A stretch of DNA of 64,000 bases from a virus: positions 1 to 64,000 of IMG/VR virus record IMGVR_UViG_3300010389_000004; one strand, 5' to 3'. The notes under the pieces were generated by a model. That model ran no database searches. It was given only the letters and a program-made list of their open reading frames with translations, and was not told the DNA's origin. Numbering within the stretch: the stretch's first letter is position 1; the number at the start of each line of letters is the position of its first letter. This document shows, one piece after another, positions 136-5,607 of the stretch. The position numbers were made by a program, and so were the translations under genes.

Positions 136-196
136 CAAACTGCGGCCACTTTTGTCTTTTCTGAGGGATATCAAACTGCGGCCACTTTTGCCTTTT
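136..196 (+). repeat. Pair of 25-bp direct repeats (caaactgcggccacttttgYctttt), 36-bp period
   Basis: Copies at 136-160 and 172-196, 24/25 identical, 11-bp spacer, at the primase stop. Confidence 0.85.
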
Positions 197-1205
197 ATAA
201 ACCCAACCAATCTGGCTCTTCCATCGAGCGAATTACCTCTGCTCGATACTCAACAGACCAGTCATTCCAGTCACCTTGTCGATCGCCAACAGCCAGGTAC
301 GCTTCGACACCAATACTGCGCAGATCCAGAACGATCTTCTGCGCCTCAGAGCGTGCGTCGCTGTCCAACCCCACGAACACACGACGATCAGTCCTGGAAG
401 CCAACAGAGCACGCTGGGTTTCAGACACCGACTTCCCGAAAGCAGCTACCGCATTGAAGCCCGCATCACGCACAGCCCACGCATTGAAAATACCCTCGAC
501 CAAAACAAGGTCTCGCTCTGCCCACGCCTCATCCCAGCCATACAGGAATTGCGTCTTCTTCAATTTCAAACTGTCATTAGGGGGGTTCAGGTATTTCAAA
601 TGAGAAGGATGCAACTTCGCATGATCCCACGCTTGAAAGAACACGAACGCTCCGTTGAAGAACACCGGCAGGCAGGTGCGGCCTTCGTATCGACCCTCAA
701 CGAATACCCCCGCACGCTCTTTCAGAATGCGCTCCATTGAAAACCCACGAGCTGACATAGCCAGAAGGCTTTGGTAGATCTGGTTATCGTAGAAGGGTAT
801 CCCTGTGTAACCACCGTCCGCGCAATGCCAGCGAATACCAGGCACCTGCAAGTCTTCCGCCCTGGTGCGCACTGGAGCGAGGTCTTCCTCCTCAGCGTCC
901 TCCTCGCTCACTGCTTCCAGGAATGCCATGAAGGAGTCGAAGTCCGCAGGAGAGACCTTCTTGCGGCCGCCCAGGGCCTTATACGCTGCCTCTCGATCGC
1001 AGCCCGTGATCGAGCACACCAGCGTTACAACAGACCCTTTCTCCTGACAGCGGTAACAAATAAATTGGGCTTTGGTGCTATTCACCCAAAGCCCTTTCTC
1101 TTTCCCACAGAAGGGACAAGTACAGATTAGCTCTTCGCCTGCTTCCTGGGTGAACTCCAGATTGTCAACCACCCAGGACTCAATATTCTCAGTATCCAAC
1201 AGCAT
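195..1205 (-). CDS. DNA primase (Zn finger + TOPRIM, DnaG-like)
   Basis: CPFC...CYRC zinc finger, KYLN, LYGWD, VLVEGIFN, GLDSD, GDWND motifs; start overlaps the helicase stop. Confidence 0.9.
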   Translation of the reverse strand: MLLDTENIESWVVDNLEFTQEAGEELICTCPFCGKEKGLWVNSTKAQFICYRCQEKGSVVTLVCSITGCDREAAYKALGGRKKVSPADFDSFMAFLEAVSEEDAEEEDLAPVRTRAEDLQVPGIRWHCADGGYTGIPFYDNQIYQSLLAMSARGFSMERILKERAGVFVEGRYEGRTCLPVFFNGAFVFFQAWDHAKLHPSHLKYLNPPNDSLKLKKTQFLYGWDEAWAERDLVLVEGIFNAWAVRDAGFNAVAAFGKSVSETQRALLASRTDRRVFVGLDSDARSEAQKIVLDLRSIGVEAYLAVGDRQGDWNDWSVEYRAEVIRSMEEPDWLGL

Positions 1206-2593
1206 CAGGAATACGCCCCCAAGAGTGAGTTCATGGATTGCTGAGCATCAGGCTCTTGGCGCACAGACGTCATAGCAGAGTCGGCTTCTTCCTCGGTCAA
1301 CTGCGCGACTTCGAAGTTGATTCGGAATGGAAGCTGCTGGAGCTTTTCACCTGTGCGGTGCTTCACCCAGTACATCCGCATTATGCGGTTGTGGTATTCT
1401 TCCTTCGTCTGGCAAAGAGCGATCATCACGTCAGCGATGTTTGCCTTTTCAATACAGTCAGACACGTCCTCAAGATTGACGATCTCGCTACCTTGCGATT
1501 TACGCCCGGCCTGGGTTGCGGTAATTAGCGCGAAGTCCATCGACACTGCAAGACCACGAATCTTCTGGAAGATGTCCTTCAGGCGCGAGTAATCATCCTG
1601 GCCAGGGCCATCCATCAGATCGCCGTAGTCCAAAACCACCGCCTCAACCGGAGCACCCCAACGCTGCTCAATGGATTTCAGGTATGCCCTGAGCATTGAG
1701 ACTGTCAGACCTCGCGTCGGGAATTGACGTACTGCCAGTGCTCCAACACCAGCCTGCACAAACTCTGCCCACTGACGGAGGACACCTGCGTTCTCTCGAT
1801 ACGCATAAGGGGGAATACCTGTCAGCGAGCTAATCAATTTGCAGGCGATCAGATTGGCTGATTGCTCCAAGCTGATATACACAACGCGCCTCTGATTTCT
1901 CACCAGGTCAGCAGCGAGTCCTGACATCACCGTGGTCTTGCCTGTGTTGGTCGGCGCCATGAATATCGTCATCTCACGCTTGCCAAAACCACCCGCCATG
2001 ATGCGATCGAACTTCGGGCGACCCGTCGGAAGAACCACACGGTGTTCGGGGTTCATCAGGTATTCCAGGGTACGGTCAATATCCGCCCCGAAGTCGAACG
2101 TCTCGGTGTCGGAGAGTGAAACGATATCCGATACCCGCAAGAACGAATTAGCAGCCGCAGACAGGTCTACCTCCTGGCCCGCCTTTACCTTCCCGGCAAT
2201 CTCCTTGAGAAGGATCTTCACGCGCTGCGTCCGCACCCACTGAAAGAGTTTGTCCTGGACGAACTGGCCATCGAGCGGAGGGGTAAATAGTAGCTGCTGA
2301 TTCTGGTACATCCACGACCGATACTGCGTCGCCAGATCCTCTGACTTCAGACGGCTCGCGTGCTCCTCAACGTAGTACTGGAAAATAGCAGGGCTAATCG
2401 GTGAGGCGTACTCCTGCAAAGCCTTGTAGCTGAATGACACACAGTCACTCAGGTACTTGCCGCCTAACACCTCTGAATCAAACACCTCAACGCCGGCCAC
2501 CTCGGAGACCTGTTGAGCTACGCGCATGTCGGAGTAAATCAACCGGACTACCGTTGTGGCGAAATCCGGTGGGAAGGTCTCGACGTTCATCAA
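1205..2593 (-). CDS. DnaB-like (SF4) replicative helicase
   Basis: Walker A APTNTGKT, YISLEQ, VLDYGDLM, TATQAGR, KHR motifs. Confidence 0.92.
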   Translation of the reverse strand: MMNVETFPPDFATTVVRLIYSDMRVAQQVSEVAGVEVFDSEVLGGKYLSDCVSFSYKALQEYASPISPAIFQYYVEEHASRLKSEDLATQYRSWMYQNQQLLFTPPLDGQFVQDKLFQWVRTQRVKILLKEIAGKVKAGQEVDLSAAANSFLRVSDIVSLSDTETFDFGADIDRTLEYLMNPEHRVVLPTGRPKFDRIMAGGFGKREMTIFMAPTNTGKTTVMSGLAADLVRNQRRVVYISLEQSANLIACKLISSLTGIPPYAYRENAGVLRQWAEFVQAGVGALAVRQFPTRGLTVSMLRAYLKSIEQRWGAPVEAVVLDYGDLMDGPGQDDYSRLKDIFQKIRGLAVSMDFALITATQAGRKSQGSEIVNLEDVSDCIEKANIADVMIALCQTKEEYHNRIMRMYWVKHRTGEKLQQLPFRINFEVAQLTEEEADSAMTSVRQEPDAQQSMNSLLGAYS

Positions 2594-3180
2594 ACTCTCC
2601 GCCGCAACTCACAGAGCCAGGTGTAGTACGCGGCGTCCTCCCCACACATGCGGAAGACTTCCGCCGCGTGCGGGGGGACACTGACCAAGCCAGAATCTGA
2701 GAGGAATCGAAAATCCGCGTCTGTCACCAGGAACTCCCCTGACAACAACGCGGAACAATGCTGAATAGCGTCTCTACGGTTTTGGAATACCGCCCCCATC
2801 TGGGTAACGGTGTCTTCATCGGCGGACATCCCCATGAGGATGTAATCGGCCTGCGATTCGTTGAGTACGGACCCTTGGGCTTTCTTCGCTTCACGTCGTT
2901 TGTACACATCCCAAGCGTGCGCTGAGTTCAGCCACGCAGGACCGCGATTCGACGGCTTCAGAGGAACGGTGATATCCAGGAAGCGCTCGACCGACACACC
3001 CAACGACCGACACTTGGATACGAGAGAGACGAAGGTGTTGTAGTGTTTGCTGTGGCGCGGTCCTGACTTCGGGTGCCACATGAACACGCGCTTGCCTGCA
3101 ACGTCAGATAGTCTGCCCGCGTAGTGTCTGAGCGCCTGCTCAGCCTCTTCTTGCAGAAGCATTACTGCCATGCCTGCCAT
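2590..3180 (-). CDS. Hypothetical protein, first gene of helicase-primase operon
   Basis: ATGA overlap with helicase; start moved to ATG 3180 (GAGGTG SD, downstream of the terminator hairpin). Confidence 0.7.
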   Translation of the reverse strand: MAGMAVMLLQEEAEQALRHYAGRLSDVAGKRVFMWHPKSGPRHSKHYNTFVSLVSKCRSLGVSVERFLDITVPLKPSNRGPAWLNSAHAWDVYKRREAKKAQGSVLNESQADYILMGMSADEDTVTQMGAVFQNRRDAIQHCSALLSGEFLVTDADFRFLSDSGLVSVPPHAAEVFRMCGEDAAYYTWLCELRRRV

Positions 3181-3192
3181 CGAGCACCTCGC

Positions 3193-3235
3193 AAAAAAGT
3201 TCGGCTCCCTCACCCGTCACAGGAGGGAGCCGAAC
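3193..3235 (-). terminator. Intrinsic terminator/attenuator ahead of the replication operon
   Basis: Perfect 13-bp stem gttcggctccctc/gagggagccgaac followed by U6 on the minus strand. Confidence 0.85.
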
Positions 3236-3385
3236 CAAGCCGTCCACCTGGACGACCACCAGCAAGGGCACCAAACAAGACCACGGGTGTGACGGGTATG
3301 GTCTCGCTCGCAAGATGGTGAGGACGGCTGATGGAGCAACCGTCCTCGTATGACGTTGGAGCCGTGAGGTTTCTCCGTTGCCATG
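3193..3385 (-). ncRNA. Structured leader RNA or sRNA (about 190 nt, 4 hairpins)
   Basis: Hairpins 3320-3347, 3272-3310 (4 G-U pairs only on minus), about 3239-3256, then terminator; promoter upstream. Confidence 0.6.
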
Positions 3386-3391
3386 AGTACC

Positions 3392-3450
3392 ACCCTAAGA
3401 CGAAAAGTTTAGGTGTCAAGACTTGACACAGAAAATTCTTGCGGTACTTT
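3392..3450. promoter_or_regulatory. Back-to-back sigma70-like promoters sharing a TGTCAAG-A-CTTGACA palindrome
   Basis: Plus: TTGACA 3423-3428, 16 nt, TACTTT. Minus: TTGACA 3419-3414, 16 nt, TAGGGT. Confidence 0.6.
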
Positions 3451-3506
3451 TGTCCCCCTTGCTCACTTCCGGGGATACTCACCTATCCGAGCAGTTGACA
3501 GGATTG

Positions 3507-3576
3507 CACCGCAGCCACAGGTACGATCGGAGGGACCGGAATCTCTCCTTGAGTCCAGTGGCTGCGGTGTGTTTTT
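3507..3576 (+). promoter_or_regulatory. Long leader hairpin plus U-tract just before the RBS of the HTH gene
   Basis: 12-bp stem caccgcagccac/gtggctgcggtg, inner stem ggaggga/tctctcc, then tgttttt. Confidence 0.55.
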
Positions 3577-3586
3577 GAGGGAAGCT

Positions 3587-4042
3587 ATGCAGAACCACCA
3601 GCCACCACAACCCGTCGGCACCCCGATCTCCGCGAGGGAGATCCACTCGGGGTGCTACATACCCCCCGAGGTGTTGAACGACCCGAAGCTCTCGCCGGCC
3701 GCGAAGCTCGTCTACGGTCGTCTGCGTTGGCACGCCCGAGACAAATCCTCCTGCTGGCCGGCAGTCGCTACTTTGAGTGAAGCGCTAGGCATGAACTCCT
3801 CAACGATTCATCGAGCGCTCAAGACTCTCAAAGACCAAGGCTATATCATGATCTCCGGCGCCAAGTTTCGAAACTCGACTTATACCTTCCTTTTACATAG
3901 GCGGTTCTTGAAAGCACCGTCCGATATGCAAGGTGCTCAGCACGGAGGGTATTCAGCGCAAATAACACAGCCCGTCTATTTCAACACCACTGTGAATTTG
4001 CCCCCGAATACTCAAAACCAGACTTTTGAGGGAGACCTGTGA
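3587..4042 (+). CDS. Winged-HTH protein (HTH_36-like), probable replication initiator
   Basis: IPPEVLNDPKLSPAAKLVYGRL...CWPAVATLSEALGMNSSTIHRALKTLKDQGYI; GAGG SD before ATG 3587. Confidence 0.8.
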   Translation: MQNHQPPQPVGTPISAREIHSGCYIPPEVLNDPKLSPAAKLVYGRLRWHARDKSSCWPAVATLSEALGMNSSTIHRALKTLKDQGYIMISGAKFRNSTYTFLLHRRFLKAPSDMQGAQHGGYSAQITQPVYFNTTVNLPPNTQNQTFEGDL

Positions 4043-4053
4043 GGCAGCCTCAC

Positions 4054-4165
4054 GGTGTGCAAATTGCAAGGGTGTCTTGCAAATTGCAACGGTGCCTTGC
4101 AAAAAGCGTCACTAAAAGAGAAGTAAAAGAGTAGGAAAAGGAAGAAACTTCCTTCGGAAGTTATT
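4054..4165 (+). repeat. Iteron-like 20-bp tandem repeats plus A-rich tract (putative origin)
   Basis: tgcaaattgcaagggtgtct (4058-4077), tgcaaattgcaacggtgcct (4078-4097), partial third copy, then an A/G-rich run. Confidence 0.6.
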
Positions 4166-4191
4166 GCGCGGGGCGCAACTGGAGTTTCAAA

Positions 4192-5607
4192 ATGATAGTT
4201 CGAATTCATGAAGGAAGACTGTTTTCCCGGATTGAGCTTCAAGCCCAAACCGAGGAAGAGTATTCAAACCCCATGCTTGCGGATGTAGCCGTAGCCGGAA
4301 TAAAGGAAGCGCTGACGGTATATAATAAGGACGGCGACCCATTCACCTCATTCTACCCGGAAGGGGTTCATGGCATCGCTCCACCGATGTCATTCCTGAA
4401 GGGACACACCGAGCGCCTCTGCACCTACCTCGCTGGCAGAGGTATCGGAGTGGAGTTCTACCCGGCCGACTTGATTGAGCAACGCCAGTCACCCCCGGAC
4501 TTCACCCCGCCCGTCGGGGAACTCATCAAGCTCCAGCCGTGGGCAGTGGAGAACATCGTCAAGCATCAGTACGGGATCATGAGCCTCTGTACGCGCTTCG
4601 GGAAGTCCTACGTGTACGCCGGCATGTACGTTGCACTCGGTAGGCCGCGCACGATGATGATCGCCAAGACGGTCACGATTGCTGAGCAGGTATCGCGTGA
4701 ATTGGCGAAGTGGTTGGGCGAGCCTGTCGGTGTCGTGTCGCACACGATCGGGAAAACAGCCTGGCACAACTTCAACGTCGGGATTGCGAAATCATTCTAC
4801 CCTCGAAATTCGAGTGAAATCCGTCCTGAGTATCGCCCCTTACTTGGTGGGCTTGAAATGCTCATCGTCGACGAGTGCCACTCGTTCGGATCGCAGATCC
4901 AAAGTCTGTACCACCACATGCCCGAATTGATTTGGTCTTGGGGAGGATCAGCAACTCCGTTCACCAAGGAGGTCGAGCAGCAGTTCTTGCTTGAGGGCTA
5001 CGCTGGCCCCGTGCGTATTGAGGCAAAGGCGAAGCTGTTGTCCGACTACGGGTATGTCGCCAAGCTCAACGTGTTCTGGTACCGGTTCAAGCACAGCACC
5101 CCCGAACCGAATGCCAAGTACCACGACCTCATCACCAAGCACATCGTTTTCGACGAACGCCGAAACCAACTCATCGCCAGCATCGCCTACGGTGAAATGG
5201 ACGCAGGTGGACAAGGTATTATCTTCGTCGATCGCGTCGAGCACGGCAAAGAGCTTTGCTCTCTCATCCCTGGGTCGGTGTTTGTTTCATCGACCACCAT
5301 GAACCGCAGTACGTCGAACGACACTCTGCGGCAATTCAACAACCGAGAGATTCCCGTCGTTATCACCACCAAGAAGTGGCGAGAAGGAGTTACGTTTCGA
5401 GCAGACTATGGCATCAACGCCGAAGGCGCCAACGCCGATCACGTCACCATCCAAAAGGTGGGGCGACCGTTGATGCCCAAAGAAGATCTTTCCGCCGTCC
5501 GGTGGTATGAGATTTGGGATCACGGGTTACAACCCTTTGAACGATGGTCCCAAACACGATACGCCTGTCTGCGCGATGAAGAATGGCCTCAGTCCTTTGT
5601 GGAGTAA
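4192..5607 (+). CDS. SF2 DEAD/DEAH helicase (UvsW-like)
   Basis: TRFGKS, IVDECH, GSATP, IIFVDRVEHG, QKVGR motifs. Confidence 0.88.
   Translation: MIVRIHEGRLFSRIELQAQTEEEYSNPMLADVAVAGIKEALTVYNKDGDPFTSFYPEGVHGIAPPMSFLKGHTERLCTYLAGRGIGVEFYPADLIEQRQSPPDFTPPVGELIKLQPWAVENIVKHQYGIMSLCTRFGKSYVYAGMYVALGRPRTMMIAKTVTIAEQVSRELAKWLGEPVGVVSHTIGKTAWHNFNVGIAKSFYPRNSSEIRPEYRPLLGGLEMLIVDECHSFGSQIQSLYHHMPELIWSWGGSATPFTKEVEQQFLLEGYAGPVRIEAKAKLLSDYGYVAKLNVFWYRFKHSTPEPNAKYHDLITKHIVFDERRNQLIASIAYGEMDAGGQGIIFVDRVEHGKELCSLIPGSVFVSSTTMNRSTSNDTLRQFNNREIPVVITTKKWREGVTFRADYGINAEGANADHVTIQKVGRPLMPKEDLSAVRWYEIWDHGLQPFERWSQTRYACLRDEEWPQSFVE

What the first reader, a model, noticed from the sequence alone, without database searches (positions are those of the whole stretch)
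3193..3385. Leader RNA with a terminator loop perfectly complementary to an upstream loop, gating the helicase-primase operon
Seen (minus strand): promoter; hairpin with CUCCAU loop (3320-3347); 13-bp hairpin with four G-U pairs and loop ACCCGUCACACCC (3272-3310); small hairpin; then a 13-bp terminator with U6 a few nt before the first RBS. The terminator loop UGUGACGGGU (3212-3221) is the exact 10-nt complement of ACCCGUCACA (3288-3297). Established: loop-loop pseudoknots and attenuation control rep expression in IncI/IncB and pIP501-type plasmids. Inference: an undescribed kissing-loop attenuator or sRNA controlling phage replication.
Basis: partly seen in the sequence, partly recalled or inferred. 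Interest (0 to 1): 0.82.

Follow-up and report, generated by a model that had tools for sequence, protein, structure and literature searches.

The report
Kissing-loop terminator leader before phage helicase operon
An uncultured aquatic phage puts a roughly 190-base folded, non-coding RNA ending in its strongest transcription stop signal right in front of its helicase-primase genes; the tip of that stop hairpin matches another hairpin tip, and one distant relative keeps the same pairing, so it is probably an uncatalogued RNA gate on replication genes.

Summary
On the minus strand, a host-type promoter (TTGACA 3419-3414, TAGGGT 3397-3392) is followed by a about 192-nt leader with five hairpins. 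It ends in a 13-14 bp hairpin plus U6 (3236-3193), two bases before the SD of the first gene (ATG 3180). That hairpin is the strongest canonical terminator in the 94-kb genome. Its loop (3221-3212) is the exact 10-nt complement of the H2 loop (3297-3288).

There is no Rfam match, and the overlapping 55-codon ORF scores as non-coding.

The only syntenic relative carrying the element is L003 (helicase 37% identical). It keeps GUGACGG in its leader terminator loop while 8 of 11 stem pairs have changed on both sides. It also keeps a complement, with one compensatory flanking pair, but that complement lies downstream of the terminator, on a predicted anti-SD.

So the pairing is real and selected. 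A purely cis "loop-loop gating of termination" cannot be the shared mechanism. My best reading is a leaky attenuator whose terminator loop is a regulatory pairing site, working like IsrK, P4 CI RNA or the IncI pseudoknot without belonging to those families.

No expression data exist, and only two lineages carry the element. Earlier notes of this scan describe the same architecture in other, unrelated phages; I did not test them.

The parts
3413..3429 (.). Palindrome GTGTCAAG-A-CTTGACAC that gives a TTGACA -35 box on each strand (back-to-back divergent promoters)
   Evidence: Read directly. L003 has an analogous palindrome at 5177-5212 (I1).
3392..3419 (-). Leftward promoter: -35 TTGACA 3419-3414, 16-nt spacer, -10 TAGGGT 3397-3392. 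Inferred start near A3384.
   Evidence: The L003 counterpart is TTGACA-17-TATCTT. The -10 here is too weak for the tool's E. coli-type scan. The start site is inferred, not measured.
3350..3384 (-). H0: hairpin at the very 5' end of the leader
   Evidence: MFE helices 3384-3380/3354-3350, 3376-3373/3361-3358 and 3369-3368/3363-3362.
3320..3347 (-). H1: 11-bp hairpin with loop CUCCAU
   Evidence: (I6). The loop is unpaired with probability 1.0.
3272..3310 (-). H2: 13-bp hairpin with four G-U pairs. Its 13-nt loop (3297-3285) carries ACCCGUCACA (3297-3288), the partner of the terminator loop.
   Evidence: (I5). The loop is 0.73-1.0 unpaired in the readthrough RNA and about 0.5 unpaired at half of its positions (0.48-0.99 overall) in the terminated RNA.
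3238..3257 (-). H3: 8-bp hairpin between H2 and the terminator
3193..3236 (-). T: intrinsic terminator. Stem 3236-3223 / 3211-3198, loop 3222-3212 containing UGUGACGGGU (3221-3212), then U6 at 3198-3193.
   Evidence: (I2). It is the strongest hairpin followed by a run of five or more T in the 94-kb genome, dG -27.5; a looser scan lists one hairpin of lower energy at 72653. The loop core GUGACGG is the only conserved block against the L003 leader.
3178..3192 (-). Translation start of the first gene: SD GAGGUG 3190-3185, ATG 3180-3178. Predicted to pair with CCUUGC 3267-3262 and CCAUC 3318-3314 in the readthrough RNA.
   Evidence: P0004, 196 aa; the SD is about 0 unpaired. This is a prediction only.
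195..3180 (-). Gated operon: 196-aa all-alpha protein (3180-2590), DnaB-like helicase (2593-1205), DnaG-like primase (1205-195)
   Evidence: Pfam and PHROG hits. The same gene order occurs in L003 and L005.

Best explanation
The segment 3384-3193 (minus strand) is a non-coding, promoter-proximal leader RNA of the phage's helicase-primase operon.

Host RNA polymerase starts at a TTGACA/TAGGGT promoter. The nascent RNA folds into five hairpins, and most polymerases stop at the terminator T (3236-3193), two bases before the SD. The operon is therefore expressed only by readthrough.

The apical loop of T displays GUGACGG, which base-pairs with CCGUCAC elsewhere in the same leader. Here the partner is the loop of H2, giving 10 bp. 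In the relative L003 the partner is an 8-nt stretch just upstream of the SD. I take this terminator-loop pairing to be the regulatory contact.

Most likely scheme: the terminated leader is a stable small RNA, with a hairpin at its very 5' end and a terminator plus U-tail at its 3' end. The pairing, in cis or between a terminated leader and a nascent or readthrough transcript, sets how much helicase-primase message is completed and translated.
- In L003 the pairing would pull an anti-SD off the SD and turn translation on.
- In this window it links H2 to T within a fold that also buries the SD and the AUG.

What is shown: the anatomy, the strength of T, non-coding status, selection on the loop and on its complement, and one compensatory pair.

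What is inferred: the start site, actual termination, the direction of the effect (more or less readthrough or translation), and cis versus trans action.
For: 1. Anatomy and fold: (z -4.9).
2. T is the strongest hairpin followed by a run of five or more T in 94 kb (a looser scan, lists one hairpin of lower energy at 72653), and it sits 2 nt before the SD, so no promoter can fit between them.
3. The exact 10-nt complement occurs only at these two sites, and both sites are in the loops of long hairpins. P is about 3-7e-4.
4. In L003 (helicase 37% identical, same gene order):
   - the leader terminator loop contains the same GUGACGG;
   - this is the only run of conserved columns in the leader alignment;
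   - 8 of 11 stem pairs changed on both sides and all still pair;
   - an 8-nt complement is present (I7; P about 5-8e-3);
   - the chance of a shared loop 7-mer is about 1.7e-3.
5. The pair next to the invariant core is G:C here and C:G in L003, a compensatory change (read).
6. In the L003 readthrough fold the partner pairs with the SD, and the loop-partner duplex is -16.2 kcal/mol. In this window the duplex is -17.8.
7. The 55-codon ORF over the leader scores below 99.9% of real coding windows, and L003 has no counterpart.
8. Precedents from the literature:
   - IsrK is a terminated sRNA that acts on its own readthrough mRNA (PMC4825925).
   - P4 CI RNA pairs with seqA and seqC in the leader of the replication operon (as summarised in PMC4825925).
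   - The OxyS terminator loop kisses the fhlA start region (as cited in PMC11979758).
Against: - Only two independent lineages carry the element. The third syntenic lineage (L005/L006) has a structured leader but no such terminator or motif.
- The core 7-mer is conserved rather than covarying, which would also fit recognition by a protein.
- The partner sits upstream here and downstream in L003, so no single cis mechanism fits both.
- A fully formed 10-bp helix inside an 11-nt loop is sterically hard to reconcile with a closed T stem (my inference from known kissing complexes of 6-7 bp).
- There is no RNA evidence for the start, the end or the abundance of the transcript.
- The -10 box is weak by E. 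coli rules, and the host is unknown.
- One unrelated hairpin reached a similar loop-complement score by chance.
Confidence: 0.5

Rival explanations
1. Protein-dependent antitermination unit. A constitutive promoter makes a short terminated RNA, like lambda PR'-6S RNA-tR', and a phage or host protein lets polymerase through. The invariant GUGACGG loop is a protein recognition site, in the manner of boxB.
For: - A strong promoter is followed by a about 190-nt RNA and a strong terminator directly before an operon.
- The loop sequence itself, not just its complementarity, is invariant across very diverged phages.
- The divergent initiator-side operon also has a hairpin plus U-run before its SD in both phages. 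This would suit a common antiterminator.
Against: - A protein site does not explain why the exact complement is present in both leaders (joint chance well below 1e-5).
- It does not explain the compensatory flanking pair.
- No candidate antiterminator was identified (not searched exhaustively).
Confidence: 0.2
2. Stand-alone trans-acting small RNA gene. The promoter-to-terminator unit is mainly an sRNA whose terminator loop (or H2 loop) targets other phage or host transcripts. The internal complement only masks the seed.
For: - sRNA-like anatomy: a 5' hairpin and a terminator with U6.
- Terminator loops can act as pairing or regulatory sites (PMC11979758).
Against: - No other site in the 64-kb window matches the 10-mer exactly. 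The three one-mismatch sites are no more than chance (5 found, 4.4 expected).
- The unit sits 2 nt from the operon's SD with no room for another promoter, so it necessarily gates the operon.
Confidence: 0.08
3. Plain constitutive attenuator or insulating terminator. The loop complementarity and its recurrence in L003 are relics or chance.
For: - One unrelated hairpin in the genome scored similarly in the loop-complement scan.
- There are only two lineages.
Against: The separate chance estimates are:
- 3-7e-4 for the complement in this window;
- 5-8e-3 for the complement in L003;
- 1.7e-3 for the shared loop 7-mer (all).

The rest of the leader and the stems have diverged completely.
Confidence: 0.07
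4. Leader-peptide attenuation. A leaderless 55-codon ORF (ATG 3384, stop TGA 3219-3217 inside the T loop) is translated, and a ribosome reaching the stop melts T and allows readthrough.
For: - The inferred start site coincides with the A of the ATG.
- The stop codon lies in the terminator loop.
Against: - The codon score is -0.167, below 99.9% of real coding windows.
- The peptide is rich in Trp, Cys and Arg and matches no family.
- L003 has no equivalent ORF or leaderless ATG.
Confidence: 0.04
5. DNA-level element. The two 10-mers are half-sites of an operator or roadblock bound by a dimeric DNA-binding protein with looping, or they are terminal inverted repeats of a small insertion.
For: An inverted repeat is present in both phages, and an HTH protein gene lies next door.
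Against: - The arms converge here and diverge in L003.
- Centre-to-centre spacing is 76 bp here and about 68 bp in L003, so the helical phasing differs.
- The sites lie about 90-170 bp downstream of the promoter.
- In both phages one arm sits exactly at the apex of a hairpin whose stems covary. That makes sense only for RNA.
- There are no target-site duplications.
Confidence: 0.03

Closest known systems
IsrK of the Gifsy-1 prophage (PMC4825925)
   Same: One promoter gives a short terminated RNA and, by readthrough of that terminator, a longer mRNA predicted to be translationally closed. The short form can pair with the long form. It is phage-borne.
   Different: - No sequence or Rfam relation.
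- IsrK pairing uses helix strands, not the terminator loop.
- The downstream genes differ: an antiterminator pathway there, helicase-primase here.
- Nothing here is tested experimentally.
P4 CI RNA with its targets seqA and seqC (as summarised in PMC4825925); related P1/P7 c4 RNA (my own knowledge)
   Same: An RNA derived from the leader of the phage's own replication (primase-helicase) operon carries a sequence complementary to sites upstream and/or downstream in the same transcript. The pairing controls premature termination or translation. P4 has both an upstream and a downstream partner; this window and L003 each have one of the two.
   Different: - CI RNA is made by processing, not by intrinsic termination.
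- The P4 sites are not hairpin-loop to hairpin-loop.
- No Rfam C4 or IsrK-type match.
- No lysogeny context is known here.
IncI-alpha / IncB rep mRNA pseudoknot (as reviewed in PMC8053102)
   Same: A hairpin loop pairs with a distant sequence next to the RBS of a replication gene to open it. The L003 leader fits this in silico.
   Different: - In this window the partner is another hairpin loop, not the region next to the RBS.
- No antisense Inc-like RNA promoter and no translated leader peptide.
- The hairpin here is a terminator.
Corrinoid riboswitch L5-L13 kissing loop (PMC10327014)
   Same: A loop-loop contact between an upstream hairpin and a hairpin of the expression platform decides whether a terminator or an RBS hairpin acts.
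   Different: - No cobalamin aptamer (no Rfam hit).
- The kiss there is 4-5 bp and depends on a ligand. Here it is 10 bp, with no conserved aptamer core shared with L003.
Lambda PR'-6S RNA-tR' late unit (my own knowledge)
   Same: A promoter is followed by a short RNA of about 190 nt, ended by a strong terminator that must be overridden to express the operon behind it.
   Different: - That unit depends on Q protein and a DNA site at the promoter.
- No loop-loop complementarity is known there.
- It serves the late genes, whereas this one serves early replication genes.

Membership tests
Any Rfam family (including C4 antisense RNA, IsrK, riboswitches, ribozymes) | Covariance-model match at or near the gathering score | tested here: not met
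   - cmscan at E<=10 on 2800-3900, both strands: only three chance hits elsewhere.
- Whole window at gathering score: 0.
- L003 and L005 at E<=1: nothing in the leaders of interest.
Intrinsic (Rho-independent) terminator | G+C-rich stem directly followed by a U-tract | tested here: met
   13-14 bp perfect stem, dG -27.5, followed immediately by U6. The loop is 11 nt, or 6 nt if two inner pairs form. That is larger than typical, which is why the tool's scan (loops of 3-8) missed it.
Intrinsic (Rho-independent) terminator | Transcripts actually end in the U-tract | not testable with these tools
   No RNA run holds the sequence. The runs that were laid are DNA contigs only.
Antisense-RNA attenuation or copy control (pT181, pIP501, IncI/IncB) | Countertranscript made from a promoter on the opposite strand of the leader | tested here: inconclusive
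   No promoter-like site on either strand of 2500-4300 by the consensus scan. That scan also misses the sense promoter, so its absence is weak evidence.
P4 CI RNA / seqA-seqC type | Leader of the replication operon carries an internal sequence complementary to other sites of the same transcript | tested here: met
   10-nt pair here and 8-nt pair in L003 (I7). The operon encodes helicase and primase.
P4 CI RNA / seqA-seqC type | Small RNA released by processing (RNase P / PNPase), acts in trans in immunity, and is sequence-related to CI/C4 | tested here: not met
   Sequence and structure relation not met. Processing and trans action cannot be tested here. I therefore do not file it as a member; the resemblance is in how it may work.
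IsrK-type dual small/messenger RNA | The readthrough form is translationally closed and is opened by pairing with the short form | tested here: inconclusive
   Predicted only. The SD is about 0 unpaired in the window's readthrough RNA. In L003 the partner doubles as an anti-SD.
IncI-alpha/IncB pseudoknot | The hairpin loop pairs with a sequence adjacent to the RBS | tested here: not met
   In this window the partner is the H2 loop, 95-110 nt upstream of the SD. The feature is met only in L003.
Leader-peptide attenuator | A translated short ORF whose ribosome position controls terminator formation | tested here: not met
   The ORF 3384-3217 scores as non-coding and is not conserved in L003.

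The most novel reading that the evidence does not exclude
The terminated leader is a self-titrating RNA sensor. Each abortive round from the promoter adds one stable leader RNA, and its terminator loop or H2 loop kisses the complementary loop of nascent or readthrough leaders. The phage would thus count its own template and transcript number and set helicase-primase output by RNA alone: plasmid-style copy control built from a sense-strand RNA.

This would be one lineage of a wider, uncatalogued class of kissing-loop terminator leaders that earlier notes of this scan report before replication genes of unrelated phages.

A still more exotic reading is not excluded. The H2 loop is identical over 11 nt to 16S rRNA 1402-1412, and the T loop is antisense to it. 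The statistics say this is probably chance.
Probability: 0.2. Interest if true: 0.85.

Novelty: new variant of a known kind. Interest (0 to 1): 0.6.

Why it matters
In textbook cases, phage replication genes are switched by proteins (repressors and N- or Q-type antiterminators) or, in P4 and P1, by processed antisense-like RNAs.

Here the regulatory contact is the apical loop of an intrinsic terminator that sits directly on the RBS of a helicase-primase operon. That would add an RNA-only way to meter replication-gene dosage.

The element is small enough (about 200 nt) to test completely with disruptive and compensatory loop mutants in vitro.

If the similar architectures noted elsewhere in this scan hold up, it would be a widespread, uncatalogued class of phage RNA element. 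It would also be a compact natural part for synthetic transcription control.

Tried and rejected
**Searches for relatives**
- GenBank phages: no DNA or protein match for the leader, the 196-aa protein or two of its relatives. The SF2 helicase finds only 25%-identical jumbo-phage genes.
- IMG/VR: eight scans with five different queries always returned the same three lineages: the window, L003 and L005/L006.
- JGI metagenomes: only the L003 phage again (the L020 leader is identical).
- GTDB genomes: no prophage relative.
I therefore could not fetch the contigs of P0005 (53% identical to the L003 protein) or of the other 20 representatives of the family. This is the main gap.

**Expression and variation**
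- No RNA holder is listed for the sequence.
- The DNA contigs of two estuary runs are identical over the parts of the leader they cover, so they give no natural variation.

**L005/L006**
- The leader is structured (z -3.4) but has no U-tract terminator on the sense strand and no motif.

**Ideas rejected**
- Origin of replication in the leader: iteron-like repeats and low G+C lie at 4043-4191 instead.
- MITE or terminal inverted repeats, and operator half-sites: the orientation and spacing differ between the phages.
- tRNA or tmRNA: none.
- 16S rRNA mimicry: the H2 loop matches E. coli 16S 1402-1412 over 11 nt. However, 11% of shuffled leaders match 16S that well, and the genome has 87 such 11-mers against 69 expected.
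- Pairing between the T 5' arm and the apex of the rightward leader hairpin (13-mer, 85%; D2): L003 has no counterpart.
- A second "kissing" terminator at genome position 85,332: it lies antisense inside a 627-codon gene and is a chance hit.
- Fold of the 196-aa protein: the model is confident (pLDDT 94) but there is no significant structural match.

Full report
**Setting.** The window is the first 64 kb of a 94-kb IMG/VR virus record, about 55% G+C. It has no close cultured relative. DNA runs that hold it come from aquatic and estuary metagenomes.

The minus strand of 195-3180 encodes three genes:
- a 196-aa protein of unknown family (3180-2590);
- a DnaB-like helicase (2593-1205);
- a DnaG-like primase (1205-195).

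Divergently, the plus strand encodes an HTH_36 replication-initiator-like protein (3587-4042), an SF2 helicase and a UvsX/RecA-like protein. The finding lies in the 406-bp gap between the two operons.

Reading the minus strand and folding it gives this order:
- -35 TTGACA at 3419-3414, a 16-nt spacer and -10 TAGGGT at 3397-3392;
- H0, a hairpin at the inferred 5' end (3384-3350);
- H1 (3347-3320, loop CUCCAU);
- H2 (3310-3272, 13 bp with four G-U pairs, 13-nt loop);
- H3 (3257-3238);
- T, a perfect 13-14 bp stem (3236-3223 / 3211-3198) followed by U6 (3198-3193);
- GC, then SD GAGGUG (3190-3185) and ATG (3180).

The 10-mer ACCCGTCACA occurs exactly twice in 64 kb, once on each strand, at 3212-3221 and 3288-3297. 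That places it in the loops of T and H2. The predicted duplex energy is -17.8 kcal/mol.

The leader is far more structured than shuffled versions (z -4.9). T is the strongest hairpin followed by a run of five or more T in the whole 94-kb genome; a looser scan lists one hairpin of lower energy at 72653. With only 2 nt between the U-tract and the SD, no separate promoter can serve the operon. Any helicase-primase message made from this promoter has to read through T.

**How much is chance?**
- A complement of 10 nt or more to this particular loop elsewhere in the leader arises in 0.03-0.07% of shuffles.
- Any long-range 10-mer pair in the leader arises in 1.65% of shuffles.
- When I scanned about 110 terminator-like hairpins in all the DNA held, one other hairpin scored as well. 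It turned out to lie antisense inside a long gene.

The complementarity on its own is therefore suggestive only.

**Comparative evidence.** Exhaustive use of the collection scans found only two other lineages with the same gene order: L003 (helicase 37% identical, first protein 29%) and L005/L006 (helicase 29%).

L003 has the same design:
- a palindromic pair of TTGACA boxes;
- promoter TTGACA-17-TATCTT;
- a 5'-terminal hairpin;
- a perfect 11-bp hairpin followed by UUUAUAUU (I3).

Aligned to the window's leader, the only run of conserved columns is GTGACGG in the loop of that hairpin. Eight of the 11 stem pairs differ on both sides and all still pair. This is the signature of a hairpin kept for its shape and a loop kept for its sequence.

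L003 also carries the complement GCCGTCAC at 5353-5360 (I7). The chance estimates are 0.5-0.8% for that complement and 0.17% for two such loops sharing a 7-mer.

The pair flanking the invariant core is G:C in the window and C:G in L003. This is one compensatory change, which argues for base-pairing rather than two independent protein sites. L005/L006 lacks the element.

In L003 the partner lies 59 nt downstream of the terminator. It cannot influence the termination decision in cis. In the predicted fold of the L003 readthrough RNA, the partner pairs with the SD (5352-5358 with 5378-5384). Pairing with the terminator loop (-16.2 kcal/mol) would free that SD.

In the window the partner is upstream, in a hairpin loop. 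The SD and AUG are predicted to be buried by other leader segments: 3267-3262 pairs with 3192-3187, and 3318-3314 pairs with 3181-3177.

What the two phages share is therefore a terminator whose loop pairs with another part of the same leader. They do not share a particular kissing-loop attenuator. This resembles three known systems:
- P4, where CI RNA pairs with a site upstream and a site downstream in the leader of the primase-helicase operon;
- IsrK, where the terminated short RNA acts on its own readthrough mRNA (both in PMC4825925);
- OxyS, whose terminator loop kisses a translation start region (cited in PMC11979758).

It also resembles the IncI pseudoknot (PMC8053102) and the corrinoid L5-L13 kiss (PMC10327014). 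None is a family match: Rfam gives nothing.

**Rivals.**
- *Leaderless 55-codon ORF.* It runs from the inferred start site to a TGA inside the T loop. It scores as non-coding and is absent from L003.
- *DNA-level operator or inverted-repeat element.* The orientation and spacing differ between the phages, and one arm always sits at the apex of a covarying hairpin.
- *Origin of replication.* Iteron-like repeats in the AT-rich gap at 4043-4191 fit this role better.
- *Protein-dependent antitermination unit.* This stays a serious rival because the loop sequence is invariant. It leaves the conserved complement unexplained.
- *16S rRNA mimicry.* The 11-nt identity of the H2 loop to 16S rRNA 1402-1412 is within chance.

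**Limits.**
- No transcript data exist.
- The DNA runs show no variation over the parts of the leader their contigs cover.
- The host is unknown.
- The direction of regulation, and whether it acts in cis or in trans, are inferences.

**Relation to the rest of the scan.** Notes from other windows describe leaders before replication genes of unrelated phages in which a 5' hairpin loop pairs with a terminator loop, with covariation claimed. They share no sequence with this window, and I did not test them. They are leads that this may be one lineage of a broader class.

Within this window and L003, the divergent initiator-side leaders follow the same theme: a long hairpin plus U-run before the SD, with the interior of the hairpin complementary to the 5' part of the leader.

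**Verdict.** This is a real, selected and uncatalogued leader RNA with a terminator-loop pairing in front of a phage helicase-primase operon. It is a new variant of known RNA-based gating, and its mechanism is only partly resolved.

Noticed in passing
window 3457-3586 (+); L003 4981-5150 (-): The divergent initiator-side leader also ends in a long hairpin (3504-3572) plus UGUUUUU just before its SD and ATG (3587). Its apical loop CCGGAA (3536-3541) matches UUCCGG (3467-3472) near the 5' end. In L003 the counterpart hairpin (5001-5015 / 5057-5071) has an interior that is complementary to the 5' end of that leader over 10 + 11 nt (5029-5052 with 5121-5149).
   Followed up: partly
window 3413-3429; L003 5177-5212: The two divergent promoters share a palindrome that gives a perfect TTGACA on each strand. 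The boxes are 3 nt apart here (one base, A3421, at the palindrome's centre) and 19 nt apart in L003. This could be a single operator or mutually exclusive polymerase binding.
   Followed up: partly
window 4043-4191: The AT-rich gap after the initiator gene (G+C about 0.47) holds two 20-nt tandem repeats (4058-4097, each with TGCAAATTGCAA) and two 11-nt repeats (4113-4134). It is a candidate replication origin with iterons.
   Followed up: partly
window 2590-3180 (-): The first gene of the operon encodes a 196-aa all-alpha protein. Its family has only 22 representatives among 1.8 billion clusters. The model is confident (pLDDT 94) but has no significant structural relative; T4 gp59 helicase loader reaches only Z 4.9. 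Its stop overlaps the helicase start, so it may be a helicase loader or accessory protein.
   Followed up: partly
window 3286-3296 (-) and 3213-3221 (-): The H2 loop is identical over 11 nt to E. coli 16S rRNA 1402-1412 (top of helix 44, the decoding site), and the T loop is antisense to 1402-1410. An 11-nt match to 16S occurs in 11% of shuffled leaders, so this is probably chance. It would, however, explain why the sequence itself is conserved.
   Followed up: yes
L005 4143-4279 (-): In the third lineage, the intergenic region carries a possible small RNA unit on the strand opposite the helicase operon: TTGAAG-18-CACAAT, a long hairpin, then a clean terminator at 4168-4143 right upstream of the initiator-side promoter. 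It gives a sub-threshold Rfam BjrC68 hit (E 0.19).
   Followed up: partly
window 3222-3234 and 3529-3541: The 5' arm of T and the apex of the rightward leader hairpin share a 13-mer at 85% identity. The two divergent leader RNAs could therefore pair over 11 of 13 positions. L003 has no counterpart, so this is likely chance.
   Followed up: partly
window 3262-3267 / 3187-3192 and 3314-3318 / 3177-3181 (-): In the predicted readthrough RNA, the SD and the start codon of the first gene are paired with two upstream leader segments. The SD has an unpaired probability of about 0.
   Followed up: partly
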